Positions 8,147 to 62,600 of a stretch of 64,000 nucleotides of DNA are shown piece by piece. The notes beneath the pieces are model-generated. The model was given only the letters and a program-made list of their open reading frames with translations, had not been told where the DNA came from and did not search any database. The position numbers were made by a program, and so were the translations under genes. The stretch comes from a virus: UHGV virus genome UHGV-0382128, one strand, 5' to 3'. The number at the start of each line of letters is the position of its first letter. The stretch's first letter is position 1.

Positions 8147-8200
8147 AAAAAAACGTGCTACTCCTACCCTCTAAGAGGGTAGGAGGTTACTTTATTTTTT
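8147..8200. terminator. bidirectional rho-independent terminator
   Basis: Hairpin CTCCTACCCTC-TAA-GAGGGTAGGAG flanked by an A-run (5') and a T-run (3'), between convergent genes 7932..8141 (+) and 8192..9454 (-). Confidence 0.7.
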
Positions 8201-23322: not shown

Positions 23323-23362
23323 CGCCACGAGACAAGGACGTCTCGGATTAAGGAGAGTGGCC

Positions 23363-25041: not shown

Positions 25042-25956
25042 ATGGAAGAACTTACTAGACCGACGGTATCCGATAAGCTCTACAGTAATCCGAGAACGTT
25101 AAACGTGATTACAACATCCAAATGTAATCTGGACTGTAGCTTCTGCGGCGGAGCCTATTACATGCATAGAGAGGATACAACCGCAGAAGTACAAAAGGAA
25201 AGTATTATCGAGGCGCTGGAAAATAACCCGACTATCACAAATATCCAATGGTCAGGGGGCGAACCATTACTTGCCACGCGTAAAATTGATACCCTTATAG
25301 AAGAGATAAGGGAGAAGTATCCTCGTTGCGAACATTACCTGTATACCAATGGTTTAAAAATGCGTAAATCGCATCTACCGTTGTTAAAGGGTTTTGATAG
25401 TATCTTTTTTAGCATGGATGGATTCAAAGAATCAGAGCGTCCGTTCATGCGGATTATCGAAGAAAAACAATACGAGGTTTTGGAGACAATTTACGAATTG
25501 AAAAATATTCGTACTTGGGCGGTTTTGACGCGCGAGCGTATTGGGGATAAACGTTGGTACGAAGATATAATTGCGTTACATAACCACATTTACCATTATG
25601 GTTTTTGTGAGATGTCGCTGGTTTTGGACAAAAACATGCCAAAACCGTTATCTCCCGATCACGTTATGAACTTTATTTACGGGTATTTTAGAATTCAGGA
25701 GAATATAGAAAGACTGAATTCGTCCAATCGAAGCGAATGTGCGTTTACGCTAAATGCGTTATTTGATGAACCCTGTAACACATGTAGTCGTTGTTTTCGC
25801 ATTGAGTCTGACGGTGCCCAGAACCAAGTAAAGAACGTTGAAATCGTAACGCAACACGGCTGTAGTGACTTGGCCAGAAAGGTTGGATTAGATGCTTACG
25901 ACTATATACGTCGTGTGGTAGGGGCTAAGAATAGAGTCTCAGAAAAACTACGATAA
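25042..25956 (+). CDS. radical SAM enzyme (Cx3Cx2C; extra C-terminal Cys cluster), paralog 1
   Basis: TSKCNLDCSFCGG motif; GGEPLL glycine-rich motif; C-terminal Cys cluster (C..C.TC.RC...C) suggesting an auxiliary Fe-S domain. Confidence 0.75.
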   Translation: MEELTRPTVSDKLYSNPRTLNVITTSKCNLDCSFCGGAYYMHREDTTAEVQKESIIEALENNPTITNIQWSGGEPLLATRKIDTLIEEIREKYPRCEHYLYTNGLKMRKSHLPLLKGFDSIFFSMDGFKESERPFMRIIEEKQYEVLETIYELKNIRTWAVLTRERIGDKRWYEDIIALHNHIYHYGFCEMSLVLDKNMPKPLSPDHVMNFIYGYFRIQENIERLNSSNRSECAFTLNALFDEPCNTCSRCFRIESDGAQNQVKNVEIVTQHGCSDLARKVGLDAYDYIRRVVGAKNRVSEKLR

Positions 25957-27989: not shown

Positions 27990-28928
27990 ATGGACTCACC
28001 TGCAATGACAACCGACGTAGAGCCAAGGTTATCGAATCGTTTATACAATAAACCCACCGTATTGTCCGTAGTTGCTACATCCAAATGTAATCTGGACTGT
28101 AGCTTCTGCGGCGGAGCCTATTACATGCATCGTGAAGATTCTCCGCGAGAGTTTCAACGTGAACGAATTTTGAAAGCGTTGGCGTCTAACCCAACCATTA
28201 CTGAAATTCAGTGGACTGGCGGTGAACCGCTACTGGCAACTCGAAAGATTGAGGCGTTTGTCGACGAATTAAAAACGATCCGTCCTGAACTCAAACACCA
28301 GATGTTCACGAACGGTTTAAAAATGCGTAAATCGCATCTACCGTTGTTAAAACAATTCGATGGTATATATGTTAGCATCGATGGGTTTAATCTTTCTGAA
28401 CGGCCTTTTAAGCGCTTTATTGATGATAATTGTCATGAAGCGTTAGAAGTAATTTACAGCTTGAATAATGTTAACACCTGGGCTGTTGTTACGAGGGAGA
28501 ATTTATCCAATAAAAGATGGCATGAAGATATCATTCAATTACATACTGCTATCTATCATTACGGTTTTCGTTCCATGTCCTTATTACTAGATAAAAACAT
28601 GCCAAAACCGTTATCTCCCGATCACGTTATGAACTTTATTTACGGGTATTTTAGAATTCAGGAGAATATAGAAAGATTAAACGTTCTAAATTCTAGAGAC
28701 TGCGGTTTTATTGTAAACAGATTCTTCGATCATGCTTGTAATGTCTGTAGCGAAAGTCTCAGGATAGACGCGGACGGGGAAGAAAACCAACTTAAAAATG
28801 TACCAATAACTACAAAAGCAGGGTGTAACCAACTAGCCTCCTCAATAGGTGTAGAAGCTTACGAGTACATTCGTCGTGTAGTGATGGCAGAGCGTAATAG
28901 AGGGGCGGAAAATGAGTCAAGAAAATAG
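27990..28928 (+). CDS. radical SAM enzyme, paralog 2
   Basis: TSKCNLDCSFCGG; three blocks of 100 percent nucleotide identity with rSAM paralog 1 (54, 38 and 84 nt). Confidence 0.75.
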   Translation: MDSPAMTTDVEPRLSNRLYNKPTVLSVVATSKCNLDCSFCGGAYYMHREDSPREFQRERILKALASNPTITEIQWTGGEPLLATRKIEAFVDELKTIRPELKHQMFTNGLKMRKSHLPLLKQFDGIYVSIDGFNLSERPFKRFIDDNCHEALEVIYSLNNVNTWAVVTRENLSNKRWHEDIIQLHTAIYHYGFRSMSLLLDKNMPKPLSPDHVMNFIYGYFRIQENIERLNVLNSRDCGFIVNRFFDHACNVCSESLRIDADGEENQLKNVPITTKAGCNQLASSIGVEAYEYIRRVVMAERNRGAENESRK

Positions 28929-30234
28929 TTATCCTAAACAACTGACTTATCAAATTGTTACAAATTTATCGTGTAACTTGGACTGTGAGTATTGTTACGA
29001 ACGTAAGTATCCCCGTAATAACAAAGCGGCGGATATTGTTGATTTTCTACACGCTTGTTTTGAACGAGATAAAGATCTGACAAACATCGAGGTCGTTATC
29101 GATATCATCGGTGGTGAGCCGTTTATGCAGCCTAAACTATTAAAGGCGGCATTTGAAACCGCAGAAGAGTTATGCGAAAAACATAATCGGCCGTTTATGT
29201 TTAGCATCTCTACTAACGGAACGTTGTTAGATAGACCTTTGAATAGAGAAATTATTGAACGTTGGAAAGACAGGCTTTCTATCGGCGTGTCTATTGATGG
29301 ATTGCCCGAATCGCACGATAAGTACCGGATTTTTACAACAACTCGTGAAGGATCTTACGAGGCCGCTGTGCGGGGCTATAACTACTTAAAAGAAGTCGGT
29401 ATTGCAGAACTTGGTGTAAAAGCGACCTTTACGTTGGAAACGTTACCGTTCTATGCTGCTGGAATGAAATCATTAATTGATATTACTGGCGGCGGAACTA
29501 TTTCTGGCAACGTAACCTTCGAAGACATTATGCCACGGAGCATGGCTACTTCAATCGCATTGCAGATGATGGACGTGGTAGATTATTGGGTTGAGAAGGG
29601 CTTACACACCAACCCACGTAACACTTTGTCGCACATCATTCCAGACGGGTTAGATTTTGATACTATCTGGGAACCAAACTGGCGTGATCAGTTATTGTAT
29701 AACGATACTGTACGTTTGAATCCAGAACGTTTACGCCCGTTCTGCGGTACGTTAACACACATGACATGCTTAGGATTTGATCGTAAGATCTTCGGTTGTA
29801 ACCGTTTCATGTCAACCGTAACATCACGTTCTGCCGTATTTGAATTAGTTGGGCGGGAATTTGTTAGCTTAGATGACGGGAAATTGCTGGAAGAGATTCA
29901 GACGCAATACACCAACTATCCTGAAACCTGTTTAGGTTGTCCAATGAAGCACGCTTGTGGTAGTTGTGCGGCTGCATCTTACGAGAATGGAGAAGGGACG
30001 CTAGAAGATCGCAAAGCTTATCACGCTGAACGCCGTCAATGTGGCTGGACAACTGCAAAGTTGATGGTTGCGGAATATTGGAAACAGAAAATGGGCACGA
30101 CGTCAGTGAAAGATTTTCATGACAATAGCATGTGTTATTGCCCTCGTTGCGTACGTGAACGTACCCAGAAAGAAAAACAATTGAGAGAAACCAAAGATGA
30201 AGCCAATTCTGATCCACAATATTACGAAGCGTAA
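28912..30234 (+). CDS. radical SAM enzyme with SPASM-like C-terminal Cys-rich domain (anSME-like architecture)
   Basis: N-terminal SCNLDCEYC (Cx3Cx2C); C-terminal CLGCPMKHACGSCAAASYENGEG and further Cys; start overlaps the stop of rSAM 2 by 17 nt. Confidence 0.75.
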   Translation: MSQENSYPKQLTYQIVTNLSCNLDCEYCYERKYPRNNKAADIVDFLHACFERDKDLTNIEVVIDIIGGEPFMQPKLLKAAFETAEELCEKHNRPFMFSISTNGTLLDRPLNREIIERWKDRLSIGVSIDGLPESHDKYRIFTTTREGSYEAAVRGYNYLKEVGIAELGVKATFTLETLPFYAAGMKSLIDITGGGTISGNVTFEDIMPRSMATSIALQMMDVVDYWVEKGLHTNPRNTLSHIIPDGLDFDTIWEPNWRDQLLYNDTVRLNPERLRPFCGTLTHMTCLGFDRKIFGCNRFMSTVTSRSAVFELVGREFVSLDDGKLLEEIQTQYTNYPETCLGCPMKHACGSCAAASYENGEGTLEDRKAYHAERRQCGWTTAKLMVAEYWKQKMGTTSVKDFHDNSMCYCPRCVRERTQKEKQLRETKDEANSDPQYYEA

Positions 30235-44686: not shown

Positions 44687-46807
44687 TTAAATAACTACCC
44701 AGCTTTTACCATCGGAACCAATCTGCATTAGCGTAATACTTTCATTGGTATCAATGGGTTTGGCAAGACCTTCTGTCCCACTCTTTGGAGTGATGAGAAC
44801 GTTTGAATTTTCCGGTTTAACGGTGATCTTACCAGCCTTATTTGCCACGATCTGAATATTTCTGCCCACGCTATATTCTAGATCAGGAATAGTAAGTTGG
44901 CCGCCACGGTTGGTGGGTGGGAAATACACATAAGACGACACATCTTCCTCAGATAACACTATGCTACCAGAATCACGATTGACCGAGATCTCAAACTTAG
45001 AAATATCGATATCATAGGCAGTAACTTTCGTAATATCCGTCAGAACCAATTCGTTCAAATCGGTCTTAGCTGGACTGTTCGCCAGATCAAATGGAGTACC
45101 ATTCGTACCGTCCAGCACAGGTGTGACTGTGGTTTTATTGGCACCAGGATAAATGATTTCAAGCGTATGCCAGTTATTATCGTACGCACCAAAAGTTCCT
45201 AATTTCGCATTCTGCTTTTTATGATGCATCAGATTAAGATTCTTAGCGTCGGTCTGTAAGAAAAAAGACATTAGGTACGGGTTTGTATCAGCCACACTAG
45301 CGTCAGCAAGTGTAGTACCAGAAGGTAGGTCGGACGCGGAGATACGCCAATAAAGCCCTAAGCCGAAACGATTTTCTGCTAAATCACCTTTTAGTCTAAA
45401 AGTAACGGTCAGTCGTCCACCGTAACGTATCATGTCCGCAGCAGATGTCATTGACTTAGTTACATTCCAAGGTTTCATCGTTACAGCCTTTCTTAATTCG
45501 ACGAAATGCCCGTTTCCATCCTCAGAATCTTGCACGGTTACGTTACAATCAACGATATTGTTCCAACCCTGCCCTTTCAGGGAACCATCTCCACGACGTC
45601 CGTTATAACCCACAGACTCTACTAATGGGGTATAGCTTCTTACCACATTCATATTGTCTTTGAGCTCTTTAGTGTCGTTCTTCGTCAGGAGCATTGCACC
45701 ATTCGCTGTTCTTGATAATATCTCAGCAGCTATTCTCTCTGAGATAATACCGCGTCGTGCCCAAGAACTGAAATGGCTATTCCTTGTTTCAGACGTCCAG
45801 TTTTTATTACTACGGGTGGCAGCACCGTAGTAGGCAGCACCAGCGATATCAGGATCGTCAGTGGGATCATTAGTCGGTACACGTTGGCCATTATCGTCGT
45901 ACATGAATGGAACAAAAAAGATATTTTTTTGTTCATTGTTACGATAATTACCGTATATGGTTTCATATTGAACAGGATATTTTTCCTTCCAATAGTAGGT
46001 AGTGTCCCCGCAGATCCATGGTACTTCGGCGGTGTCGTACTCGGGCATCTGAGAGAGATGGTCAGAGAGATCAGTTCGGAAACGCTCTACCATTGCCATA
46101 AATAACGCTGGTTGTTGTGCGTAACCTACTTTAGTCAGATCATACTCCCCCTGCATCCACACTACAGCCAAGAGTTTATTTTTAGGATTAACGTCCAGAG
46201 CTTTTTTGGTCCGGCTAACTAAATCTTTATAAAGAGGTTTTTCCACCCCCCATACCGATGACGTCGCAGAGGCTCCTGTGGCTTCATCGAAGGTACCTTC
46301 TGCACCACCCGTGAAAGCAGAACCGCCGCGTGCGCAGGGTACTAGTAAGATACCAGCGTTGCTAGGAATATACGGGAGAAGACGCTTCGCGATGTGTAGA
46401 CCTTGACCCACACATCCGTATTCACCTTTGTCCAAATTGGCTTTGGGGTGCGAGAATACGGACATATCTTGCACGTCGTGCAGACAGTGATCCGCTGGAA
46501 TGACGTCGTTATACTTACAATCAGCCCCGTTAGGCGTTACCTTCGCACGGCGCGCCATCTGTTTAATTCGCGGATCGGGAGCGTCCAACGTCGCCGGTAG
46601 AGGCAACCCTTCACCATAACTCATCGCATTAGATTGCCCGGCTATAGGAATCACGAAGTAATACTCCGGCTCCGTCGTGCCCTGAAGTTTTGCAATATCA
46701 ATTTTATATTCTTTTTCTTCCTTAGAAAGAAGAACTAACGCACCTTTGAGATCGCCAGAGAAATTGTCGAGTTCATGGATACGTTTCTTTCCAATTGGCT
46801 GACTCAT
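44687..46807 (-). CDS. tailspike/fibre protein with SGNH (GDSL-type) esterase-like domain
   Basis: GQSNA motif at about residue 56; N-terminal KKRIHELDNFSGDLKGALVLLSKEEKEYK shared with the 1479-aa fibre (KKIRLHDLHPYTGDIGEGVLLFSKDEKDYK), suggesting a common attachment domain. Confidence 0.6.
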   Translation of the reverse strand: MSQPIGKKRIHELDNFSGDLKGALVLLSKEEKEYKIDIAKLQGTTEPEYYFVIPIAGQSNAMSYGEGLPLPATLDAPDPRIKQMARRAKVTPNGADCKYNDVIPADHCLHDVQDMSVFSHPKANLDKGEYGCVGQGLHIAKRLLPYIPSNAGILLVPCARGGSAFTGGAEGTFDEATGASATSSVWGVEKPLYKDLVSRTKKALDVNPKNKLLAVVWMQGEYDLTKVGYAQQPALFMAMVERFRTDLSDHLSQMPEYDTAEVPWICGDTTYYWKEKYPVQYETIYGNYRNNEQKNIFFVPFMYDDNGQRVPTNDPTDDPDIAGAAYYGAATRSNKNWTSETRNSHFSSWARRGIISERIAAEILSRTANGAMLLTKNDTKELKDNMNVVRSYTPLVESVGYNGRRGDGSLKGQGWNNIVDCNVTVQDSEDGNGHFVELRKAVTMKPWNVTKSMTSAADMIRYGGRLTVTFRLKGDLAENRFGLGLYWRISASDLPSGTTLADASVADTNPYLMSFFLQTDAKNLNLMHHKKQNAKLGTFGAYDNNWHTLEIIYPGANKTTVTPVLDGTNGTPFDLANSPAKTDLNELVLTDITKVTAYDIDISKFEISVNRDSGSIVLSEEDVSSYVYFPPTNRGGQLTIPDLEYSVGRNIQIVANKAGKITVKPENSNVLITPKSGTEGLAKPIDTNESITLMQIGSDGKSWVVI

Positions 46808-48743: not shown

Positions 48744-48771
48744 AAGATAGGGGGATTACTCCCCCTATCTT
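48744..48771 (-). promoter_or_regulatory. intercistronic stem-loop (perfect 12-bp stem) between fibre gene and downstream receptor-binding-like gene
   Basis: AAGATAGGGGGA-GTAA-TCCCCCTATCTT overlapping the fibre stop codon and just upstream of the RBS of 48184..48729. Confidence 0.45.
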
Positions 48772-51700
48772 TAATTCCCCTTGAGTTCTTTAAGCTCTCG
48801 GCGAAGAGACTTCATACCCTCTACTAACAGCGCAATAACGCCATTGTAATTTAGACGTAAACGTTTTTCGCCTGAAATGGCATCGTCGTCCTCGGACACA
48901 AGTTCAGGTAACGCTTCTAAAGCGTCCTGAGCAATTAGACCTACAGAAGTCTGCCAGCCGTCGTCAGGATGCTGAATTTCGTACAAATACCCTGTTAGTA
49001 ACTCTAACCGATCCAAAGCTTTATCCAGCTTCACCAGATTACGTTTGTTACGACGGTCAGAACGAATCTGTACGTCGTTAAACGAACCGTTACCGTTGCC
49101 AGTAACGTTATGTCCAAAGTTTACTTGACCGTTGGAATTATTAAAAGACAACGGACGTAATCCGTTCCAGGAACCCGCTGCGGCTTGTCCGGCATCGGTT
49201 ACTAAGAAATAGGTATTGGCACCATCGTTACGTAAAATAAAACCGTAGGTACCGTAAGCGATTCGAAAATCAGGGTATTTAGTGGCCAATTTACCGTTAA
49301 CGGTTAAATCGCCGCCTATAGTACCGCCCCCCGAAGGTAGTGCACCCACTTCCGCAGCAGTTGGCTTGTTTCTCGTATTGTAAGCACGACGCCAGCCTGG
49401 TGAGTATCCATCGCCGTTAAATACGTAGATAAACTCCGCATTAGTGAGTGCTCCGCCGACGCTCGTCGTTGTGGCGGTCGTTATACGGATCGTGTAGTTG
49501 TTTGTGCTGTTGCCGTTACTAATGACTTCTATAACGGCCCCAGCTAACGGAATGACACCACAACCCGTCTCGCTGTGAGGTATGGACGCACTGGCGGCAT
49601 AAGCCCACGCACAGCGAGCAACCCACGATCTTGTGGTAAATGCGCCGTTATTTTTCAATAACGTCACTAGCTGTGCTGTAGTTATTGCACCGCCATCAGC
49701 GCCAGTTTCTAACCAACCACTAGGTGATGCCGGACAACCTATTTCGGCTGGCCCTAACGATATATTTCTAGTGCCATCAAACGCAATACCATTGATGGTT
49801 CTTGCGGTTTGCAACTTTGTTGCCGTGGCTGCGTTTCCGGTGGTCGACTGATTCCCTGTTTGGTTTACTCCAGGTAAACTGATGTCTTTAGTACCATCAA
49901 AAGCCACGCCACCTATATTTCGCGCAGTCTGGAGCTTAGTCGCTGTCGCCGCATTCCCCGTAGTCGATTGGTTACCGGTTTGGTTTACGCCAGGAAGATT
50001 AACGTCTTTTGTCCCATCGAACACCACACCGCCGATCTTACGTGCGGTTTGTAACTTAGTAGCGGTCGCTGCATTACCTGTCGTATTCTGGTTGCCTTGC
50101 TGGTTAACGCCCGGTAAATTGATGTCACCTGTACCGTCAAAGCTAACGCCTCCGATCCTGCGAGCGGTTTTCAGTTTCGTCGCGGTAGCGGCGTTGCCGG
50201 TAGTATCCTGATTACCTGTGGCATTTACACCAGGAATGCTATCACGGGCAGTATAAACTTGTGCCCAATCTGACCACGGCGCATCAGCAGTATCACGTCG
50301 ACTACGAATATAAACGGGTGCGTGCGCACCGCTCGTCCCCGACCATCCGATTAACAGTTCTCCTTCGCCTAGCGCAGCAGAACCGCCCAAATGCAGTAAG
50401 TTACCATAAGCGGTTGGATAACCGTTATTGTAAACTTCGTACATCTGAATACCGGGTGTACCTTTGTTTGATCCAGTCAGTGCAGTAACACGTCCACGTC
50501 CTACCAACGTGTTGATATTGATGTCTCTAGACCCATCAAATTTCACACCGTTGATGTTTCGAGCCGTTTGTAATTTGGTTGCGGTTCCCGCGTTCCCAGA
50601 GGTGTTTTGATTACCCTGTTGGTTTACACCAGGGAGGCTAATGTCTCCGCTACCGTCGAAACTTACACCGCCGATTAAACGGGCTGTTTTCAGTTTCGTT
50701 GCCGTAGCAGCATTGCCTGTTAACTCACCTGATAACCCTTTTGCAAAGGTCTGTTTTTCTGCCCACGTATGCGCTGCATTCAATACGGGCATCTGGCGGC
50801 TAGTAATAGTACGTTTACCCTTTTCACCAGCGACGCGAACAGCAAAGAAGCGATAGTTAGCAGTAGACACTGTACCACGCCAGACCAACATACTCCGGCC
50901 AGTACCGGTGTCCTCCGACGCCCCTACAAGAATAGTGACCAAGTTACCGTCGATAACACCCCAATCCATTCCCGCAGGAATGTTTTTCATGGTATTCAAT
51001 GGTGTACTTATCATCTGGCCAGGAACGAAGTCGAAGGTTTGCCAGTCTAACGGATCGACCTTAGCAGCAACCCCACCGATCCCTAAAGTCAACGGGAGTG
51101 AATAGGATGTGAAAATTTCTCGCCATTCGCTCCAGGCGTTTCCTGTACGAATTCGTTGGAACTTGCGACCTTTCGAAGTTGCGCCTGTACCGTATGTGGT
51201 ATAATTTTGTTCAACACCTGAACCGTCTAAGCGTAAGGTAACTTCGCAAACACCTAGCAAGGTTGCGCCAGCAGAGTCTGTTAACGGACTGTCTGTAGCC
51301 TCACCGGTAACACTAAAGCGACCCGGTTTAGTTAAGTCGTTAAAGCTACCCTTATAGTAGGCACCGTCTACCTGATACCCAACCTGAATCCAATCTTCCC
51401 ACTGCGGATTAGACGAATCCCAAGTCGCAGTCAAACCACGGACATACATCGTACCACGTCGTGTGGTGTATCGTTGCAACCGTCCGTAAAGACCACCTTC
51501 CATGACTTCTAATACGCCTTGCGCATTACCGCCCTCTTCAGGATAATGTCTGTCGAACACCGCTAACGAACTGGACGAGTTACGCCAGTTACCCATGTGC
51601 TCAGCGCCGCCTAAGGAGTTCAGATCGATCGATGTAGATAACGGACGTACACCGGTAGTTACCATTCTCCACGGTGACCACGGGCCATTAGTTCCGTTCC

Positions 51701-53210
51701 ACGCACCTGACAACATACGGTTGTACACGTTACCATTACGACAGGTAAAACGTTGCGCACCGCTATAGTTACCCGCTTTATACACTTCTAGATAACCTAC
51801 CGCACCGTCTTCCGGGAAGTGTTTTGCTATTGATGCGTTTGTTGATGTCGACTTGGACCATGTTCCTGTGTAATTGGCATCTGGAGCAAATGTGTTAATA
51901 TCAGCATCTGCGGGCATTTCACCACGGAAACGCAGATAGGTATCAGGAGATAGACCAATATTGCGAGCAAAGGTTTCTTTATTGGGGATATCAGCACCGT
52001 TAGAGTTTTTCTGTAACGCAGCGTTCGCTTTATCTACAGTGGCTTTTAATCCCAAGAAATTGATGATATCCGCAGTTGTCCCTTTTGCTAACAAGGTTCT
52101 GGCGGTTTCTGTAAAGTCAGTTAACCCGACTTTATTAGTGCCAGTGAAATAAGGGAGCTTGTTTGCTGCGGTTGTGACTGCGGCAATAGCAGTAAGTAGT
52201 GGACTGATAGGTTGCTTCTGTGCAAGTTTCTCAGTAATCGTTGTTGCGAAGTTAGGGTCATTACCTAACGCCGTAGCTAATTCCGCTAAGGTATCTAACG
52301 TCTCAGGTGAAGAACCAACCAATTCCGCGATAGCAGCACGCACCCAGGCCGTTGTGGAGATGCTCGTGTCATTCGAGTCCTTTGGGGGCGTTGGTGATGT
52401 CGGGTTACCCGTAAAATTCGGCGAATGTTTATCGGCTTTTAACTGTAATTCGTCGTTCAGCTGTTTAACCGTGGACGGTGTGGCAGCCTCCGTCACGGAT
52501 TCGCTAGTCAGGGTATTGTTAAGTTTAACGATACCTTTACCGGTCGTACTAGCGTCAACTAAACCCTGTGCAGCGATTTTCTCCGCACGCAGAGCGGCTG
52601 ACTCCGAGCGTGTAGCTGCGCCTTCTGAGCTTTCTTTATCTTTCGTAACCTGCGCAGCAACCTTCTCCACCGCGCCCTTACTGGCCTCAATTGAAGCCGC
52701 AGTATTTGCGATACTGGTAGCGGTCTGTTGAACCTGTCCGGCCCGTTGCGTAACCGTTTCTGCTTTCTTAGTTACATCAGCCGCTACAGCTGTCACAGAT
52801 TGTTCGCTTGCGGCGACAGCTTGAGCCTTCTCATTTACTGATTGTGAAACAGTATCTACGGCAGTTTTTGCTGCTAAAACTTCAGCGTGTTTTTTGTTAA
52901 CCTCCGCAGTTTTAGTGGCGACGGTTCCCGCTTGCTCATTAACTGTGGAAGCTAAAGTGGTGGTCTGTTGCTTCGCTGTTTCTGCTAAATCTTTAGCTTT
53001 CGTAGCTTCTGTTGCGGACTGTTGTGATTTGGCCGCAGCCGTTTGTGCATCAGCAACCGCACTTCTGACGGTGTCAATGTCCGCAACGATCTCGCGGACG
53101 GGTAACTTATAATCTTTTTCGTCTTTCGAAAAAAGTAAAACGCCTTCACCGATATCCCCGGTGTACGGATGTAAGTCGTGTAAACGTATTTTCTTTACCG
53201 CTTTAGCCAT
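48771..53210 (-). CDS. long tail fibre protein (1479 aa) with tandem about 39-aa repeats and C-terminal intramolecular chaperone (peptidase S74-like) domain
   Basis: C-terminus SDRRNKRNLVKLDKALDRLELLTGYLYEIQHPDDGWQTSVGLIAQDALEALPELVS fits the S74 auto-cleaving chaperone signature; six repeats of GNQ.TTGNAATATKLQTAR.IGGV.FDGT.DI.LPGVNQ; fibre-repeat-like TTGKGIVKLNNTLTSESVTEAATPSTV. Confidence 0.8.
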   Translation of the reverse strand: MAKAVKKIRLHDLHPYTGDIGEGVLLFSKDEKDYKLPVREIVADIDTVRSAVADAQTAAAKSQQSATEATKAKDLAETAKQQTTTLASTVNEQAGTVATKTAEVNKKHAEVLAAKTAVDTVSQSVNEKAQAVAASEQSVTAVAADVTKKAETVTQRAGQVQQTATSIANTAASIEASKGAVEKVAAQVTKDKESSEGAATRSESAALRAEKIAAQGLVDASTTGKGIVKLNNTLTSESVTEAATPSTVKQLNDELQLKADKHSPNFTGNPTSPTPPKDSNDTSISTTAWVRAAIAELVGSSPETLDTLAELATALGNDPNFATTITEKLAQKQPISPLLTAIAAVTTAANKLPYFTGTNKVGLTDFTETARTLLAKGTTADIINFLGLKATVDKANAALQKNSNGADIPNKETFARNIGLSPDTYLRFRGEMPADADINTFAPDANYTGTWSKSTSTNASIAKHFPEDGAVGYLEVYKAGNYSGAQRFTCRNGNVYNRMLSGAWNGTNGPWSPWRMVTTGVRPLSTSIDLNSLGGAEHMGNWRNSSSSLAVFDRHYPEEGGNAQGVLEVMEGGLYGRLQRYTTRRGTMYVRGLTATWDSSNPQWEDWIQVGYQVDGAYYKGSFNDLTKPGRFSVTGEATDSPLTDSAGATLLGVCEVTLRLDGSGVEQNYTTYGTGATSKGRKFQRIRTGNAWSEWREIFTSYSLPLTLGIGGVAAKVDPLDWQTFDFVPGQMISTPLNTMKNIPAGMDWGVIDGNLVTILVGASEDTGTGRSMLVWRGTVSTANYRFFAVRVAGEKGKRTITSRQMPVLNAAHTWAEKQTFAKGLSGELTGNAATATKLKTARLIGGVSFDGSGDISLPGVNQQGNQNTSGNAGTATKLQTARNINGVKFDGSRDININTLVGRGRVTALTGSNKGTPGIQMYEVYNNGYPTAYGNLLHLGGSAALGEGELLIGWSGTSGAHAPVYIRSRRDTADAPWSDWAQVYTARDSIPGVNATGNQDTTGNAATATKLKTARRIGGVSFDGTGDINLPGVNQQGNQNTTGNAATATKLQTARKIGGVVFDGTKDVNLPGVNQTGNQSTTGNAATATKLQTARNIGGVAFDGTKDISLPGVNQTGNQSTTGNAATATKLQTARTINGIAFDGTRNISLGPAEIGCPASPSGWLETGADGGAITTAQLVTLLKNNGAFTTRSWVARCAWAYAASASIPHSETGCGVIPLAGAVIEVISNGNSTNNYTIRITTATTTSVGGALTNAEFIYVFNGDGYSPGWRRAYNTRNKPTAAEVGALPSGGGTIGGDLTVNGKLATKYPDFRIAYGTYGFILRNDGANTYFLVTDAGQAAAGSWNGLRPLSFNNSNGQVNFGHNVTGNGNGSFNDVQIRSDRRNKRNLVKLDKALDRLELLTGYLYEIQHPDDGWQTSVGLIAQDALEALPELVSEDDDAISGEKRLRLNYNGVIALLVEGMKSLRRELKELKGN
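49770..50720 (-). repeat. tandem coding repeats (about 117 nt units) inside the 1479-aa fibre gene
   Basis: Repeating nucleotide units readable on the plus strand (e.g. ...gccgtggctgcgtttccggtggtcgactgattccctgtttggtttac...) corresponding to the protein repeats; two runs separated by a non-repeat segment at about 50230-50500. Confidence 0.7.
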
Positions 53211-57046: not shown

Positions 57047-57568
57047 CTAAGGATTAAAAGGTAGCGGCTTGCAACCCCGCTTTTTCAACTCCTCTACTAG
57101 CTCAGGTAATGTACACCAACGTTTAAATTTGTTGTTGGCTTTAAAGTGACTAAGAATTTCCTCTACACGTTCAATCGACCACTTCCCTTTACCCACGTTA
57201 TCTAAATCTTTACGTAGCGAGAGCGTCTCAATGGTAAACGCTAATTCAGAACTGTCCGAGTGCTCGTACAGCAGTCTTACCGGTGTGGCTTGATGTAGCG
57301 TAACGCGCCAACCTGACTCCTTAGTCCAGTAGACATCTTTAATTCGGCCACTGGCGTCAATTACGGAACTGATATAAGTCCAATCGGTATCCAATTTGTT
57401 CTTTTCGGCGGTTAATGCATCTTCTAATCGTAAAGAGTTAGGGGACGGAATCCACCAACCGTACTTACCGTAATAATCGTCTATTACAGTAATACCTTCG
57501 TAATACAAATATTGTGTTTTTGTGTTAACAAATAATTCATCGCCAATTAAAACCGCATTTATCTTCAT
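57047..57568 (-). CDS. hypothetical protein
   Basis: ORF 173 aa. Confidence 0.45.
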   Translation of the reverse strand: MKINAVLIGDELFVNTKTQYLYYEGITVIDDYYGKYGWWIPSPNSLRLEDALTAEKNKLDTDWTYISSVIDASGRIKDVYWTKESGWRVTLHQATPVRLLYEHSDSSELAFTIETLSLRKDLDNVGKGKWSIERVEEILSHFKANNKFKRWCTLPELVEELKKRGCKPLPFNP

Positions 57569-58056
57569 CGTAAACCCTTCCTGTAAAACAAGTCGTAAGT
57601 GGTCGAGCTAGACGGATCAATAGAACCTACCAATGGCATAATTTTCTTTTCTGATATTCCAGTTGCCCAAGCAGCCCGCGCAAATCCCCCACCAGAACCC
57701 GTTGCCCAAACCGCATTTTTATTTATTACAAACGTTTTAAACTTATCTGCCGCCAATGTCAGCCAATGTGTTTCTCTAGCCGTAAAAATGACGATTTGAT
57801 CGAATATTCGCTCTTTTTCGAAAAGATCTGCAAGCAAGGGCTCAACTTTCTGACGTTTATCCTCGTCTAAATATTCTTCTATAGCAGCGGTAATCGATAT
57901 TTTCCAAAATTCGGTGTCCAGTACACGTTCTCCCGTGTAGAAAACAAACTTGTTTTTGTGTTTGTGCAGTTTGGGCAATTCTTTAACCGTGCCGCCATAA
58001 TCCACAAGTCGGTCAGCTAAAATGTAATCCTTTGTTACTAATACCGTTGTCATCAC
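57565..58056 (-). CDS. hypothetical protein
   Basis: ORF 163 aa; contains ATGSGGGFARAAW glycine-rich segment. Confidence 0.45.
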   Translation of the reverse strand: MMTTVLVTKDYILADRLVDYGGTVKELPKLHKHKNKFVFYTGERVLDTEFWKISITAAIEEYLDEDKRQKVEPLLADLFEKERIFDQIVIFTARETHWLTLAADKFKTFVINKNAVWATGSGGGFARAAWATGISEKKIMPLVGSIDPSSSTTYDLFYRKGLR

Positions 58057-59059: not shown

Positions 59060-59156
59060 TTAAGCTGTTCCTCAATTAATTTGTTTACGTGTGCATAATT
59101 AGACGCGGAAGCGTAAAAATAAATTCTCCCTCCCTCCAAACGGAGAGAGGGGAAGT

Positions 59157-59663
59157 TTACAGTACGTTTTCTTCGCGATCGTCTACTAACACAGAAGTAA
59201 TCACATAACGCGCTAAGCGATTACGTGCTTCTTCCGTTTCTTCTTCAGAAGGTAGCTGTTCGCCCGCAGGCGCACACAACGTTAGCCCAGACTCACGAAG
59301 CTGTTCGGCATAGTCTTCTACGGCTGTGTCGAACGTACCACGAATACCTGCTACCGCATCCATAATTTCGTCGTTCGGAATAATGGATTCTTTTAGCACA
59401 GCGTGGGCATCTGTAGGCTCCACCATTTGCAGGTTCTGTTCTACCAGCAATGCCTGTTTCGCTAAGCTGTCTGTGATAAAGCAAGACAGAATCTTTTCGA
59501 AATCGTCTAACGAGAATTCTGTGTCTTCAGATGCCCCGGTAATCAATTGCCCGTAGCGATTAAAGAATTCTTTACAACGTGTTTCGTAGTCAGCTTCTAA
59601 GTCGCGAACACCGAGATCAAAATCGTGCTGCTCCAGCTGATTAAAATCCAGAGTCTCTTTCAT
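59157..59663 (-). CDS. hypothetical acidic protein
   Basis: ORF 168 aa, Glu/Asp-rich. Confidence 0.45.
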   Translation of the reverse strand: MKETLDFNQLEQHDFDLGVRDLEADYETRCKEFFNRYGQLITGASEDTEFSLDDFEKILSCFITDSLAKQALLVEQNLQMVEPTDAHAVLKESIIPNDEIMDAVAGIRGTFDTAVEDYAEQLRESGLTLCAPAGEQLPSEEETEEARNRLARYVITSVLVDDREENVL

Positions 59664-59701
59664 CTCTAAGTCTCCAGTTAAGAGGTCATATTACCTGCTG
59701 G

Positions 59702-59929
59702 CTAGAGTACCAACGTTAACCCGGTATGGGTTTGTGCTGAACCAACACCATCACGCGCTTTTGCTTTGGCGATAAGTTTGTCAATCACACGTTGATGACT
59801 GCGAGTAATATCTTTACCTGGATAACCGATAATCAGCACGTTCTCAGCATTAATAACCGCCGAGAACTCGTTATCACCTGCAACATAAGCAATCTTTTTG
59901 TCTTTGGTTACAATACGTTTGATTTCCAT
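59702..59929 (-). CDS. hypothetical small protein
   Basis: ORF 75 aa. Confidence 0.4.
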   Translation of the reverse strand: MEIKRIVTKDKKIAYVAGDNEFSAVINAENVLIIGYPGKDITRSHQRVIDKLIAKAKARDGVGSAQTHTGLTLVL

Positions 59930-59938
59930 TCAATGTCC

Positions 59939-60712
59939 TTAAAAGATAAAATGACCAGTTAATGCTTCTGCTTCAACACCAGGCATCGATGGAGGTGCTG
60001 AATATGGAAAAGTAAGACGCACGGTTGCGTCCTTTAAATACGCAATACGGTAGTACGTGGTCAAGAGCGCATTCCCGTAAGTACAATCGTTATAGAAGAA
60101 ACCTTCGGTGGCAAACGTCTTTTCGTTGATTTTCGAATAGACTAAGATACCTTCAACTTTACCATCTTTACGGCAGCACAAACCTTCTGCTGCACCAATC
60201 GCTAACAATTCCAGGCAGCGCGTATCCAAGCTGACATTAACCACCTTAGTGATCGTAAACGTTTCTTCTAACGTTAGAGATTCAATATCATCTACATCAG
60301 GCAAATCGGTGCGAACTTCAGGTTTTTCAGTAAACGTCAGCTCATAATCGATGAACGACGGCTGCATACGCAAGAACGCCATTAACTGATCGCGACGTTT
60401 TAGGTCATTGGCAGGGTATGTGACATCAAACACCTCTACATTTAACAAACGTTTGAGTTGTGCGAAATTAATTTTCTTCTTCGCAAACACAACGATTGCC
60501 GACATGTAGAAAATCTTACCATCGGCGCGACCGGAGAAGACACATTGCAGCTGATTCGTGTTCGAAAGAATGATAAAGGTCGGATCTTCAGATTCGCGAA
60601 TGATGTCTTTTTCTATCAACCCTTTTCGTAGACGGGTTAGCGAAACTATTCTACCACCCACACCAATTGCTAAATGGTCATTACGATAATCGTCAATATC
60701 CACTATACGCAT
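59939..60712 (-). CDS. hypothetical protein
   Basis: ORF 257 aa; start overlaps the Dam stop (TAATG). Confidence 0.5.
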   Translation of the reverse strand: MRIVDIDDYRNDHLAIGVGGRIVSLTRLRKGLIEKDIIRESEDPTFIILSNTNQLQCVFSGRADGKIFYMSAIVVFAKKKINFAQLKRLLNVEVFDVTYPANDLKRRDQLMAFLRMQPSFIDYELTFTEKPEVRTDLPDVDDIESLTLEETFTITKVVNVSLDTRCLELLAIGAAEGLCCRKDGKVEGILVYSKINEKTFATEGFFYNDCTYGNALLTTYYRIAYLKDATVRLTFPYSAPPSMPGVEAEALTGHFIF

Positions 60713-61527
60713 TAGAGCACTCCCAGTAATTCAGTCACCGTTTTCCGAGTAGCGCCAGACGCACCCATATAGCGACCAACCTCAATACTGCGCCACTCAA
60801 AACCGTAATAAATTTCTCGGGTGAGTAGGGTGTCTGCATTTGACAACACGACACTGTTGCCACGTTCCACCTGTTGCTGTAGTAACTTGGCCAATTCACG
60901 ATGATCCGTTTGTGAGAATTCTTTACGGTGGTATTGCGCATGTTTCGCAGTATCCGATAACGGAATATACGGAGGATCAGCATAAATCACAGCATCCTCA
61001 GGTGTCCGTGCTAATACAGAACGAAAGTCCTCACAAACAATTTCCAGATAATCAACTTCCGCACAACGTTTAGCCCAGTCACGAATTTCTTCTAATGGAT
61101 AATAAACCCCATTCGGGTAACGTCCAAACGGAACATTGAACCCACCGCTACTGTTATAGCGACACATACCGTTATAACCGTGACGCATTAAGTATAAAAA
61201 CATCGCAGCACGCTCAACTTCTGACATCGATTTACCGCTATTAAACAGCTCACGACGCTCCATATACTTTACAGTAGTATTACCGTCTAAGAACAACGGC
61301 TGCGACGCAGCGATCAGTTCTTCAGGCTGTTCACGCGCAACACAAAGTAAGCGTATCAAATCAGGGTTAGAATCCGATAAAATATACCGGCTGTAATTCG
61401 TATTTAGGAAAACAGACCCTGCACCCACAAACGGTTCTACAAAGGTTGTACGTTTAGGCAAGACCTTTTGTAATTCCCCTAAAACACGTGTTTTCCCACC
61501 CATCCACTTAATAATTGGTTTCCGCAT
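60712..61527 (-). CDS. dam: DNA adenine methyltransferase (Dam family, GATC-type N6-adenine MTase)
   Basis: KWMGGK, VEPFVGAGSVFLNTNYSRYILSDSNPDLI and DPPY motifs closely match E. coli Dam as recalled. Confidence 0.85.
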   Translation of the reverse strand: MRKPIIKWMGGKTRVLGELQKVLPKRTTFVEPFVGAGSVFLNTNYSRYILSDSNPDLIRLLCVAREQPEELIAASQPLFLDGNTTVKYMERRELFNSGKSMSEVERAAMFLYLMRHGYNGMCRYNSSGGFNVPFGRYPNGVYYPLEEIRDWAKRCAEVDYLEIVCEDFRSVLARTPEDAVIYADPPYIPLSDTAKHAQYHRKEFSQTDHRELAKLLQQQVERGNSVVLSNADTLLTREIYYGFEWRSIEVGRYMGASGATRKTVTELLGVL

Positions 61528-62506
61528 TATATCCGCCTTGTAACGATGATACTTCGTCGCCTAACACCAGCTCGACACGATTTTTCCGACGCTCCCAACT
61601 GACGACGTCATCGTCGCGCACTAAAACAAATTCGTACTCGTAGGACCGAAATTTAAATAATTCGACGACCAGGTGTCTAAATGCAGGGTTGTTATTGAAA
61701 CACCCTATCTCCAATGGTGCCGCTGTTGTCGATGCAATCTGCAGAGCACGGTATAACAAAGTCCGTCCGATACCACGCCCCCGATGTGTTTCACTTACCG
61801 CAATGGCTTTTAATTCACACTCGTTAAGATTACGCAATTTAACTTGCACCACGCCCACAACATCGTTGCCGTCCATCCAAACGTAGGTGTGGTGGTTGAC
61901 GTGACGTACTAACTCCACCAACGTTTCGACTTGTGGCATGATTTGTCGTGAGCGGCCCACAGGGTCAGCGTTGATGTTTTCAACTACGCTCGCGCCTAAA
62001 AGCAACATAAGCTGTTCTCGTTGTGCAGCGGTTAACTCTTTATAAAAATCACCAGAGATGTTCTTCACGTTCGTTGGTAGAGCGATATCCAATAACGAGC
62101 GTGTACCTAAACGGTATGTGGTGTGGGTGTGTCTAAATCCTAAGTCATTAAGCTCAGAGATTTCTTCTACACCACTGGCGATTCGATTAAGATACGTAAA
62201 ACCGGTGTAGTCGAGTACCAGTAGTAGGTTCAGTTTGTTCAAACAACCTGGTACAATTTCATGCATATACAAGCAGTGTAACGTTGGATCGCCGTAAATG
62301 TGTTTTGTGATGATAAACCCTTGAATTGTTTTTCCTTTTTGTAAAGAGAACGTATTCAGTTCACTATTGCACAACGCCTCACGAATCACCGCACCGTTAG
62401 GGCCCGATAAACAAGCCTGAAGTTGAGGGTTGCGAATATCTCTACGTGCTAACCGACCTACTGTTAAATCCGTGGCGGTACGTTCTATAGTCTTCCTAAA
62501 AGCCAT
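61508..62506 (-). CDS. two-domain protein with C-terminal GNAT-type acetyltransferase motif
   Basis: ELKAIAVSETHRGRGIGRTLL matches the GNAT acetyl-CoA-binding motif; N-terminal about 200 aa unknown; overlaps Dam by 20 nt. Confidence 0.55.
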   Translation of the reverse strand: MAFRKTIERTATDLTVGRLARRDIRNPQLQACLSGPNGAVIREALCNSELNTFSLQKGKTIQGFIITKHIYGDPTLHCLYMHEIVPGCLNKLNLLLVLDYTGFTYLNRIASGVEEISELNDLGFRHTHTTYRLGTRSLLDIALPTNVKNISGDFYKELTAAQREQLMLLLGASVVENINADPVGRSRQIMPQVETLVELVRHVNHHTYVWMDGNDVVGVVQVKLRNLNECELKAIAVSETHRGRGIGRTLLYRALQIASTTAAPLEIGCFNNNPAFRHLVVELFKFRSYEYEFVLVRDDDVVSWERRKNRVELVLGDEVSSLQGGYNAETNY

Positions 62507-62600
62507 GTTAATTACTCCTTAAAAGGTCGTCTCAAAACAATACGCTAAAGCTGTAAAAACAAAAAAGAAAGGGGAACCGAAGTTCCCCAATTATTGAACA

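What the first reader, a model, noticed from the sequence alone, without database searches (positions are those of the whole stretch)
60712..62506. Dam methyltransferase very close to E. coli Dam, overlapping a GNAT-domain gene
The Dam protein shares long near-identical stretches with host Dam as I recall it (VEPFVGAGSVFLNT.YSRYIL.D.N.DLI), which suggests relatively recent acquisition from an enterobacterial host and a role in evading GATC-sensitive restriction or in packaging. It overlaps by 20 nt a two-domain protein with a C-terminal GNAT acetyltransferase motif of unknown target.
Basis: partly seen in the sequence, partly recalled or inferred. Interest (0 to 1): 0.4.

Follow-up and report, generated by a model that had tools for sequence, protein, structure and literature searches.

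The report
Jumbo-phage Dam methylase beside tandem GNAT
The two genes are real, but the DNA methylase is only 43% identical to E. coli Dam and, together with its acetyltransferase neighbour, is an old, already annotated gene pair of SPN3US-like giant phages rather than a recent capture from the host.

Summary
Both ORFs, their coordinates and the 20-nt overlap are confirmed. The 271-aa protein is a Dam-family (D12 class) N6-adenine methyltransferase. It has intact FxGxG and DPPY motifs, and 6 of the 7 EcoDam GATC-contact residues are identical.

It is not "very close" to E. coli Dam. It passes the Dam-family cut-off but fails the E. coli-type equivalog cut-off. The nearest bacterial Dams are 44-49% identical.

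Its closest relatives are Dams of SPN3US-like nucleus-forming jumbo phages: Erskinevirus 71-72%, Seoulvirus 67%. These form one clade, and their divergence follows that of a core virion protein, which indicates old, vertical inheritance.

The 332-aa neighbour is a tandem GNAT: a degenerate N-terminal GNAT plus a C-terminal GNAT with an intact acetyl-CoA loop. It is the fast-evolving ortholog of SPN3US gp104 (31% identity). The order GNAT, Dam, gp106-like gene is conserved in four genera. The gene downstream of Dam is a distant GNAT paralog without the CoA motif.

There is no restriction-enzyme partner and no similarity to Mu Mom. The finding is ordinary: a new member of a known kind. The acetylation target remains unknown.

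The parts
62571..62588 (-). Terminator-like hairpin (GGGGAACTTCGGTTCCCC followed by a T-run) between the upstream 218-aa gene and the GNAT gene. It marks the 5' boundary of the transcription unit. A strong AAGGAG ribosome-binding site follows at about 62518-62523.
61508..62506 (-). 332-aa tandem-GNAT N-acyltransferase, the ortholog of SPN3US gp104 (phrog_8663).
62108..62467 (-). N-terminal degenerate GNAT-fold domain (about aa 14-133). It has no acetyl-CoA loop. Conserved motifs are GDPTL (aa 72-76) and LDYTGF (aa 98-103).
   Evidence: As a sequence domain it is almost lineage-restricted: 5 hits among 1.84 billion representatives.
61619..62068 (-). C-terminal catalytic-type GNAT domain (about aa 147-296). 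The acetyl-CoA pyrophosphate-binding loop R-G-R-G-I-G is at aa 242-247 (nt 61766-61783).
61508..61527 (-). 20-nt overlap between the GNAT 3' end and the Dam 5' end. It implies co-transcription and probably coupled translation. The GNAT tail encoded here is disordered in the model and variable between relatives.
60712..61527 (-). 271-aa orphan Dam-family (D12 class) N6-adenine DNA methyltransferase, predicted to act on GATC. Motif I FVGAGS is at aa 33-38 and motif IV DPPY at aa 184-187. Residues K7, Y118, N119, M121, R123, P133 and Y137 correspond to EcoDam K9, Y119, N120, L122, R124, P134 and Y138.
59939..60712 (-). 257-aa gene overlapping the Dam stop by 1 nt (TAATG). It is the ortholog of SPN3US gp106 (phrog_9941) and a distant paralog of the tandem-GNAT family, without the acetyl-CoA loop.
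   Evidence: hhalign against the GNAT family gives probability 90.7%, E 1.2e-6, over 218 colinear columns. Fold not verified: the single-sequence AF2 model has pLDDT 32.
59157..59929 (-). Two further small genes of the same unit: 75 aa at 59702-59929 and 168 aa at 59157-59663 (phrog_8221). Function unknown.
59128..59151 (-). Terminator-like hairpin (10-bp stem, 7 G-C pairs) that closes the five-gene unit.

Best explanation
The region is the conserved GNAT, Dam, gp106-like module of an uncultured SPN3US-like jumbo phage of about 225 kb. This is a relative of the Seoulvirus/Erskinevirus lineage of nucleus-forming Chimalliviridae, and its host is probably E. coli or a close relative.

Shown:
- Five same-strand genes lie between two terminator-like hairpins.
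- The second gene encodes an orphan Dam-family N6-adenine methyltransferase. Its catalytic, AdoMet-binding and GATC-contact residues match EcoDam.
- The first gene encodes a tandem GNAT whose C-terminal half keeps the acetyl-CoA loop.
- The third gene encodes a distant GNAT-family paralog lacking that loop.
- The Dam gene is old in this phage lineage and vertically inherited. The GNAT evolves much faster.

Inferred:
- The phage Dam methylates GATC on phage DNA. That DNA replicates inside a protein shell that is expected to exclude host Dam.
- Progeny genomes would therefore carry the same GATC methylation as the Dam+ enterobacterial host. This would make them insensitive to host factors that act on unmethylated GATC, namely MboI/DpnII-type nucleases and MutH.
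- The GNAT most likely acetylates a host or phage protein, or a small amine, early in infection. Its target is unknown.
- The tight spacing means co-expression with Dam. It does not necessarily mean a shared pathway.

The confidence of 0.7 is a blend: about 0.9 for the identity and evolutionary history of the genes, and about 0.45 for the proposed biological role of Dam.
For: - ORFs and overlap.
- Domains.
- EcoDam alignment, 43% identity with motifs and contact residues conserved. Residue roles come from PMC4417163.
- The Dam-family cut-off is passed and the best PADLOC model is 'orphan methyltransferase'.
- Closest Dams are jumbo phages at 67-72% identity. They form one NJ clade apart from bacterial Dams at 44-49%.
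- Synteny in four genera.
- A core virion protein shows the same identity ranking and links the phage to Goslar and 201phi2-1.
- SPN3US and Asesino are experimentally shown to form a nucleus: review PMC13282480.
- Paralogy of the downstream gene.
- Terminators.
- GATC is depleted in the window (O/E 0.61) and more strongly in relatives (0.19-0.37). This fits the long-known counter-selection of GATC in enterobacteriophages (McClelland 1984; Deschavanne and Radman 1991, as cited in PMC5014478).
Against: - No methylation data exist for this phage or, as far as I could find, for SPN3US.
- The phage nucleus already excludes nucleases, so the need for Dam is not obvious. The review notes that DNA modification is uncommon in Chimalliviridae.
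- GATC depletion is not specific to this clade. Goslar, a nucleus-forming coliphage from outside it, has O/E 0.68. Whether Goslar carries a Dam was not checked.
- One contact residue differs, L122 to M.
- Exclusion of host Dam from the nucleus and import of phage Dam are both assumed, not shown.
- Nothing identifies the GNAT substrate. Its CoA loop is degenerate in the Machinavirus and Wellingtonvirus orthologs, and Erskinevirus lacks the gene altogether. It is therefore dispensable for Dam function.
Confidence: 0.7

Rival explanations
1. The Dam was captured recently from an enterobacterial host chromosome and serves restriction evasion or packaging.
For: Dam belongs to the same family as EcoDam. 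A 29-residue stretch is 83% identical. The nearest non-phage relatives are Enterobacterales Dams from Pectobacterium, Enterobacter, Erwinia and Serratia, so the ultimate source was probably a gammaproteobacterium or one of its temperate phages.
Against: - Overall identity is 43%, and the best bacterial hits are 44-49%.
- The protein fails the equivalog cut-off, 258.5 against 441 bits.
- Jumbo-phage Dams are monophyletic in the NJ tree.
- Synteny and divergence parallel a core gene.
- A genome-collection scan with six 8-residue peptides of the protein found no near-identical bacterial copy.
- No GATC cluster resembling a P1 pac site is present.
Confidence: 0.03
2. Dam is the methylase half of a phage-borne GATC restriction-modification system of the DpnII/MboI type. 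The 1-nt-overlapping 257-aa gene would be the endonuclease.
For: The genes overlap tightly. The 257-aa size is similar to the MboI and DpnII endonucleases (sizes from my own knowledge). The second-best PADLOC model for Dam is a Type II MTase.
Against: - The 257-aa protein has no Pfam, NCBIfam, PADLOC or PDB-sequence match to any nuclease.
- It is instead homologous to the neighbouring GNAT family.
- The best PADLOC model for Dam is orphan MTase.
- A GATC endonuclease would be useless against Dam+ hosts.
Confidence: 0.03
3. GNAT and Dam act on the same substrate. One version is a Mom-like acyl modification of adenine in phage DNA. The other is acetylation that regulates Dam or a host GATC-binding protein such as SeqA, MutH or host Dam.
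For: Adjacency or overlap is conserved in four genera. Mu Mom is a GNAT-superfamily adenine-modifying enzyme, and jumbo phages do carry Mom-family genes (PMC7824862).
Against: - There is no detectable similarity to Mu Mom: hhalign probability 0.4%.
- Erskinevirus keeps Dam without the GNAT.
- The acetyl-CoA loop is degenerate in the Machinavirus and Wellingtonvirus orthologs.
- GNAT diverges far faster than Dam, 31% against 67% identity to SPN3US. This is not expected for two parts of one pathway.
Confidence: 0.08
4. The phage Dam acts mainly as a regulator rather than as protection. It would time phage gene expression or replication, or over-methylate host DNA to disturb mismatch repair, SeqA binding or oriC.
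For: Dam methylation has regulatory roles in P1, Mu and E. coli (my own knowledge; PMC4417163). The nucleus should already protect phage DNA. The gene is conserved over long phage divergence.
Against: No conserved GATC clusters were seen in the window's intergenic regions. The only cluster is four sites at 44825-44987. GATC is depleted rather than enriched. There are no expression or localisation data.
Confidence: 0.15

Closest known systems
Salmonella phage SPN3US gp105 (putative DNA adenine methylase) and its orthologs in Erwinia phages Asesino and phiEaH2
   Same: Same family, same length and same genomic position. Identity is 67% (SPN3US) and 71-72% (Erskinevirus). They share the conserved N-terminus and all motifs.
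   Different: The phage in the window is a distinct lineage. Nucleotide identity is only about 72-75% even in the best-conserved genes, and megablast finds nothing across the region of the finding. It is known only from metagenome contigs of about 225 kb.
E. coli Dam (EcoDam, PDB 2G1P)
   Same: Same D12/alpha-class fold family. The FxGxG and DPPY motifs are shared. The GATC-contact residues K9, Y119, N120, R124, P134 and Y138 are conserved.
   Different: Identity is only 43%. L122 is replaced by M. The protein lacks the EcoDam C-terminal tail. It scores below the equivalog cut-off. It is encoded by a lytic jumbo phage, not a chromosome.
T4 Dam (PDB 1YFJ, 1Q0S)
   Same: Both are phage-encoded orphan GATC adenine methyltransferases.
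   Different: The relationship is far more distant: E about 1e-10 against 1e-65 for EcoDam. The window's enzyme belongs to the EcoDam/DpnM branch, not the T4 branch.
SPN3US gp104 (putative GCN5-related N-acetyltransferase, 332 aa; phrog_8663)
   Same: It is the ortholog: same length, same two-domain layout, same position immediately upstream of Dam.
   Different: Identity is only 31%. The C-terminal tail differs, which is why it overlaps Dam here but not in SPN3US.
Tandem-GNAT enzymes: mycothiol synthase MshD (1OZP), MAB_4324 (7Q3A), Legionella VipF (6WQB)
   Different: Identity is 11-12%. The protein fails the MshD equivalog model, 19.6 against 163 bits. No inference about substrate is possible.
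Phage GNATs with known roles: Rac of phiKMV-like phages (acetylates RNAP alpha), Mu Mom (adenine modification), and phage SpeG-like spermidine acetyltransferases
   Same: All belong to the GNAT superfamily and are phage-encoded. A host-takeover role is the usual prediction for jumbo-phage GNATs (PMC7824862).
   Different: There is no similarity to Mom. Similarity to SpeG is not significant, E 0.17-0.33. The spermidine-acetyltransferase candidates tested in SPN3US, Caitlin and phiEaH2 (PMC9992855) are a separate gene, 154 aa in SPN3US and matching gp95 by length. Similarity to Rac was not tested.

Membership tests
Dam family / D12-class N6-adenine DNA methyltransferase (PF02086, TIGR00571) | Profile score above the curated cut-offs | tested here: met
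   PF02086 scores 194.8 bits against a cut-off of 22. TIGR00571 scores 254.5 bits against 114.85.
Dam family / D12-class N6-adenine DNA methyltransferase (PF02086, TIGR00571) | AdoMet-binding motif I (FxGxG) and catalytic motif IV (DPPY) | tested here: met
   FVGAGS is at aa 33-38 and DPPY at aa 184-187.
Dam family / D12-class N6-adenine DNA methyltransferase (PF02086, TIGR00571) | GATC-recognition residues of EcoDam (K9, Y119, N120, L122, R124, P134, Y138) | tested here: met
   Six of seven are identical and L122 is replaced by M121. Residue roles are taken from PMC4417163.
Dam family / D12-class N6-adenine DNA methyltransferase (PF02086, TIGR00571) | N6-methylation of adenine in GATC | not testable with these tools
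   This needs DpnI/MboI digestion or 6mA sequencing.
Enterobacterial chromosomal Dam (NCBIfam equivalog NF008152 / PRK10904) | Equivalog score of at least 441 bits and high identity to EcoDam | tested here: not met
   The score is 258.5 bits and identity is 43%.
GNAT (GCN5-related N-acetyltransferase) superfamily | Pfam Acetyltransf_1 above the cut-off, and the Q/R-x-x-G-x-G/A acetyl-CoA loop | tested here: met
   PF00583 scores 47.5 bits against 20.7. RGRGIG is at aa 242-247.
GNAT (GCN5-related N-acetyltransferase) superfamily | GNAT fold (beta1-alpha1-alpha2-beta2-4-alpha3-beta5-alpha4-beta6) | tested here: met
GNAT (GCN5-related N-acetyltransferase) superfamily | Acyl-CoA-dependent N-acylation of a defined substrate | not testable with these tools
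   The substrate is unknown. No specific subfamily model is passed.
Mycothiol synthase MshD (TIGR03448) | Equivalog score of at least 163 bits | tested here: not met
   The score is 19.6 bits. Only the tandem architecture is shared.
Mom-family adenine-modifying GNAT (phage Mu Mom) | Sequence or profile similarity to Mu Mom | tested here: not met
   hhalign of the family profile against Mu Mom gives probability 0.4%.
Type II restriction-modification system (DpnII/MboI type) | A cognate endonuclease gene next to the methylase | tested here: not met
   No neighbour has a nuclease or defence-system hit. The downstream gene is a GNAT-family paralog.
SPN3US-like (Seoulvirus/Erskinevirus/Machinavirus) jumbo-phage lineage | Shared gene order (thymidylate kinase, HTH, x, GNAT, Dam, gp106-like) and homologous core virion proteins | tested here: met
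   Synteny is shown. A core virion protein is 76-80% identical to Seoulvirus and Erskinevirus homologs. Large paralogous virion proteins are present.

The most novel reading that the evidence does not exclude
In nucleus-forming jumbo phages the shell excludes host Dam. A phage-encoded Dam, presumably imported into the nucleus, would then be needed to keep progeny DNA 'host-like' at GATC. The Dam gene also sits within a cluster of rapidly diverging tandem-GNAT paralogs: one appears catalytically competent and at least one appears to be a pseudoenzyme. These could form a lineage-specific family of host-takeover or anti-defence effectors that are co-expressed with Dam.
Probability: 0.2. Interest if true: 0.5.

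Novelty: new member of a known kind. Interest (0 to 1): 0.15.

Why it matters
There is little here beyond annotation. The result corrects an over-reading: a conserved cofactor-binding motif was taken as a sign of recent host capture.

It also gives the GNAT a clearer description. It is a tandem GNAT, and the gene downstream of Dam is a degenerate paralog of it.

The one modestly interesting question is why nucleus-forming phages, whose DNA is already shielded, have kept a GATC methylase through long divergence while also depleting GATC. This can be tested directly in SPN3US, which has a genetic system.

Tried and rejected
- Megablast of the region against 50,697 phage records found no match. 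The lineage is too diverged, so protein searches were needed.
- A scan of GTDB species genomes for close Dam relatives using six 8-residue peptides found none.
- Mom-like DNA modification is rejected: hhalign probability 0.4%.
- An R-M system with the 257-aa protein as endonuclease is rejected. That protein has no nuclease hits and is homologous to the GNAT family.
- Spermidine acetyltransferase is rejected. Matches to SpeG are not significant, and the tested phage candidates are a different gene, 154 aa in SPN3US.
- A P1-like, Dam-dependent pac site is rejected. The window has no dense GATC cluster.
- The upstream 218-aa gene is not detectably related to the GNAT family.
- The SPN3US gp107 family gives only weak, inconclusive matches, and the window has no gp107 homolog.
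The single-sequence run was useless, with pLDDT 32.
- Literature searches found no experimental work on SPN3US gp104 or gp105, or on Dam in Chimalliviridae.
Full report
**Observation**

The ORF list shows a 271-aa ORF at 60712..61527 (-) and a 332-aa ORF at 61508..62506 (-). They share 20 nt, 61508-61527. A third ORF of 257 aa at 59939..60712 (-) overlaps the stop of the first by one base (TAATG).

Pfam places the 271-aa protein in the D12 class of N6-adenine DNA methyltransferases (PF02086, E 2.7e-57). It finds a GNAT domain (PF00583, E 2.5e-12) in residues 198-278 of the 332-aa protein.

**How close is the methylase to E. coli Dam?**

A search of PDB sequences puts EcoDam (2G1P) on top at E 9e-66. 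DpnM follows at 4e-40 and T4 Dam at about 1e-10.

A BLASTP alignment with EcoDam gives 117/269 identities, or 43%. This stretch is motif I, the FxGxG AdoMet-binding region, and its core (EPFVGAGS) is shared by six of the seven phage Dams compared; Wellington has EPFVGGGS.

NCBIfam gives a clean membership result. The protein passes the Dam-family model TIGR00571 (254.5 bits, cut-off 114.85). It fails the E. coli-type equivalog NF008152 (258.5 bits, cut-off 441).

The residues that contact GATC in EcoDam are K9, Y119, N120, L122, R124, P134 and Y138 (roles from PMC4417163). Here they are K7, Y118, N119, M121, R123, P133 and Y137. GATC specificity is therefore a strong prediction, though it was not measured.

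**Where does the Dam gene come from?**

A tblastn search against 50,697 phage records finds the best matches in jumbo phages. Erwinia phages Asesino, phiEaH2 and Stratton (Erskinevirus) reach 71-72%. Salmonella phage SPN3US and its relatives (Seoulvirus) reach 67%.

In the 5.8-billion-protein collection, the hits fall steadily from 98% to about 50% identity. These are either named jumbo-phage proteins or unnamed proteins, many of them on contigs of more than 200 kb. Only after them do bacterial Dams appear, at 44-49%, from Pectobacterium, Enterobacter, Erwinia, Serratia and others.

In a neighbour-joining tree of 122 sequences, the window's Dam falls in one clade of about 30. This clade holds all five of the sequences named as jumbo-phage Dams, apart from EcoDam and all but one of the named bacterial sequences. 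The exception, P0058, carries only a generic JGI label. This is a crude tree without support values.

A core virion protein (8192-9454) shows the same ranking of relatives: Erskinevirus 80%, Seoulvirus 76-79%, Machinavirus 62%, Wellingtonvirus 56%. It also has distant homologs in Goslar and 201phi2-1 at 24-25%. The matching Dam values are 72, 67 and about 51%, with SNUABM_11 at 50%.

Together with conserved gene order, this indicates that Dam was already present in the common ancestor of these genera and has descended vertically. 'Recent acquisition from an enterobacterial host' is not supported. An ultimately gammaproteobacterial origin remains likely.

**What is the window?**

Megablast finds no match for the region of the finding. 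Across the first 25 kb it finds only about 72-75% identity in the best-conserved genes. The phage is therefore a new lineage relative to cultured isolates.

The exact Dam protein occurs in 132 blocks of the metagenome and assembly index, on contigs of about 225 kb from several ENA samples. A partial GNAT homolog that is 90% identical is labelled 'Escherichia coli' at NCBI.

SPN3US and Asesino are among the Chimalliviridae shown experimentally to build a phage nucleus. [quoted passage not shown]

**Gene context**

In SPN3US the order is thymidylate kinase, HTH regulator gp101, gp102, gp103, GNAT gp104 (332 aa), Dam gp105, gp106, gp107. The window and its metagenomic relatives have the same order without gp102 and gp107.

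GNAT directly precedes Dam in Huxley and Caitlin (Machinavirus), Wellington (Wellingtonvirus) and pEa_SNUABM_29 (Seoulvirus). Asesino (Erskinevirus) keeps Dam and gp106/gp107 but has two unrelated small genes where the GNAT would be.

The junction is tight but variable:
- 20-nt overlap in the window
- 8-nt overlap in an 82%-identical relative
- 6-nt gap in SPN3US, once the Dam start is corrected
- 1 to 8 nt in the Machinaviruses
- 79 nt in Wellington

The Dam N-terminus, (M/V)x(K/R)PI(I/L)KWMGGK, is conserved. This supports the ATG at 61527 as the true start.

Terminator-like hairpins at 62588-62571 and 59151-59128 bracket five genes: GNAT, Dam, the 257-aa gene, a 75-aa gene and a 168-aa gene. 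A strong AAGGAG site precedes the GNAT start.

**The GNAT protein**

It is the ortholog of SPN3US gp104 but only 31% identical to it. This makes it far more diverged than Dam (67%) or the core virion protein (76%).

The family is tiny. About ten clusters were found in 5.8 billion proteins, even with a profile query. The N-terminal 150 residues alone find 5 proteins among 1.84 billion representatives.

An AlphaFold2 model built on eight family members has pLDDT 79.8 and pTM 0.72. It shows the GNAT topology twice, at residues about 14-133 and about 147-296, followed by a disordered tail that includes the part overlapping Dam.

Only the C-terminal half carries the acetyl-CoA loop, RGRGIG at aa 242-247. 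That loop is degenerate in the Machinavirus and Wellingtonvirus orthologs.

No specific subfamily is matched. The rimI, MshD and other models all score far below their cut-offs, and the best PDB sequence hits are generic. There is no similarity to Mu Mom.

The substrate cannot be inferred. Rapid divergence, occasional loss and decay of the CoA loop fit an accessory function facing the host better than an obligatory partnership with Dam. This last point is inference.

**The gene after Dam**

The 257-aa protein (phrog_9941, the SPN3US gp106 ortholog at 24% identity) has no Pfam, NCBIfam, PADLOC or PDB-sequence match.

A profile-profile comparison with the GNAT family gives probability 90.7% and E 1.2e-6 over 218 colinear columns. 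The segment aligned to the acetyl-CoA loop lacks the motif. It is most likely a degenerate paralog of the tandem GNAT.

The fold could not be confirmed. The family alignment was not accepted for prediction, and the single-sequence model is meaningless (pLDDT 32). This result argues against the idea that Dam plus the 257-aa gene form an R-M pair.

**GATC content**

GATC is the second most depleted 4-base palindrome in the window: 164 observed against 269 expected, O/E 0.61. It has no pac-like clusters.

Depletion is stronger in relatives:

| Sequence | GATC O/E |
|---|---|
| SPN3US, 50 kb | 0.37 |
| Asesino, Huxley, Caitlin and Wellington loci, 7-13 kb | 0.19-0.23 |
| Goslar (nucleus-forming coliphage outside this lineage), 50 kb | 0.68 |

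Counter-selection of GATC in enterobacteriophages is long known. It has been attributed to MutH acting on under-methylated phage DNA (McClelland 1984; Deschavanne and Radman 1991, as cited in PMC5014478). The depletion therefore shows long-standing selection at GATC. It does not discriminate between roles for the phage Dam.

**Mechanism proposed**

Shown:
- An orphan Dam-family enzyme with all catalytic and recognition determinants.
- Co-transcription with a tandem GNAT and a degenerate paralog of it.
- Conservation by descent in a nucleus-forming jumbo-phage lineage.

Inferred:
- Phage DNA replicates behind a protein shell, so host Dam probably cannot reach it.
- The phage's own Dam would keep GATC sites methylated. 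Packaged genomes would then resist MboI/DpnII-type nucleases and MutH when injected into Dam+ hosts, before the shell exists.

I put about 0.9 on the identity and evolutionary history and about 0.45 on this biological role. A regulatory or host-directed role for Dam is the main alternative (0.15). A coupled GNAT-Dam pathway is less likely (0.08).

**Verdict**

This is an ordinary, already annotated gene pair in a new, uncultured relative of SPN3US-like phages. The new points are modest: the tandem-GNAT architecture, the paralogy of the gene downstream of Dam, and apparently truncated Dam start annotations in two GenBank records.

Noticed in passing
L002 (SPN3US JN641803.1) 5995-6019; L001 (Asesino KX397364.2) 6001-6088: The deposited Dam start codons look too far downstream. 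SPN3US gp105 is annotated from the internal ATG of KWMGGK, which loses 8 codons. Asesino gp121 is annotated from a GTG 29 codons in. Both cut off the conserved N-terminus that contains the residue equivalent to the EcoDam DNA contact K9.
   Followed up: partly
window 59939-60712 (-): The 257-aa gene that overlaps the Dam stop by 1 nt is a distant paralog of the upstream tandem GNAT (hhalign probability 90.7%) and lacks the acetyl-CoA loop. Foldseek also matches the GNAT model to several other uncharacterised proteins of 213-289 aa; those that carry a name are from Kwan, phiEaH2 and Huxley. This suggests an expanded, fast-evolving family of GNAT-like proteins in this lineage.
   Followed up: partly
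window whole; L013 (SPN3US 100000-149999); L001, L003, L004, L005; L015 (Goslar 1-50000): GATC is depleted throughout these Dam-encoding jumbo phages. O/E is 0.61 in the window, 0.37 in SPN3US and about 0.2 in short loci of Asesino, Huxley, Caitlin and Wellington. It is 0.68 in Goslar. That a phage both encodes Dam and avoids GATC is unexplained.
   Followed up: partly
window 25042-25956, 27990-28928, 28912-30234 (+): There are three radical-SAM / 4Fe-4S genes close together. SPN3US annotates two such genes at the syntenic position. Their function is unknown.
   Followed up: no
window 44687-46807 (-) and 48771-53210 (-): A 706-aa protein carries a SASA (sialate O-acetylesterase-type) domain and DUF6645. 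It lies near a 1479-aa tail fibre whose C-terminus matches long-tail-fibre distal-subunit families. This is probably the host-range module, perhaps including a receptor-deacetylating fibre.
   Followed up: no
window 9524-13846, 13857-18041, 18136-23322, 23237-24562 (+): Four consecutive large virion-protein genes share PHROG families (7557, 8078, 7449, 2163), so they are paralogs. The 1394-aa one starts with TTG.
   Followed up: no
window 57565-58056 (-): A 163-aa protein has a weak match to an HslV-family peptidase PHROG (phrog_1040, E 2.9e-8).
   Followed up: no
window 59151-59128 and 58105-58082 (-): Two terminator-like hairpins share almost the same stem (CCCTCTCTCC...GGAG(G/A)GAGGG) about 1 kb apart. 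This may be a repeated terminator motif of the phage.
   Followed up: no
P0067, Dam clade: A Dam labelled 'MAG: Shewanella sp.' sits on a 223-kb contig. In the tree it branches next to the clade that holds the jumbo-phage Dams. The contig is probably a jumbo-phage genome binned as bacterial.
   Followed up: no
L007-L010 (ENA ERZ28648449, ERZ28648651, ERZ27264788, ERZ28645622): The exact Dam protein of the window is listed in 132 blocks of the assembly index. Some of these are near-complete contigs of about 225 kb from several metagenome samples. The phage appears to be common although uncultured.
   Followed up: partly
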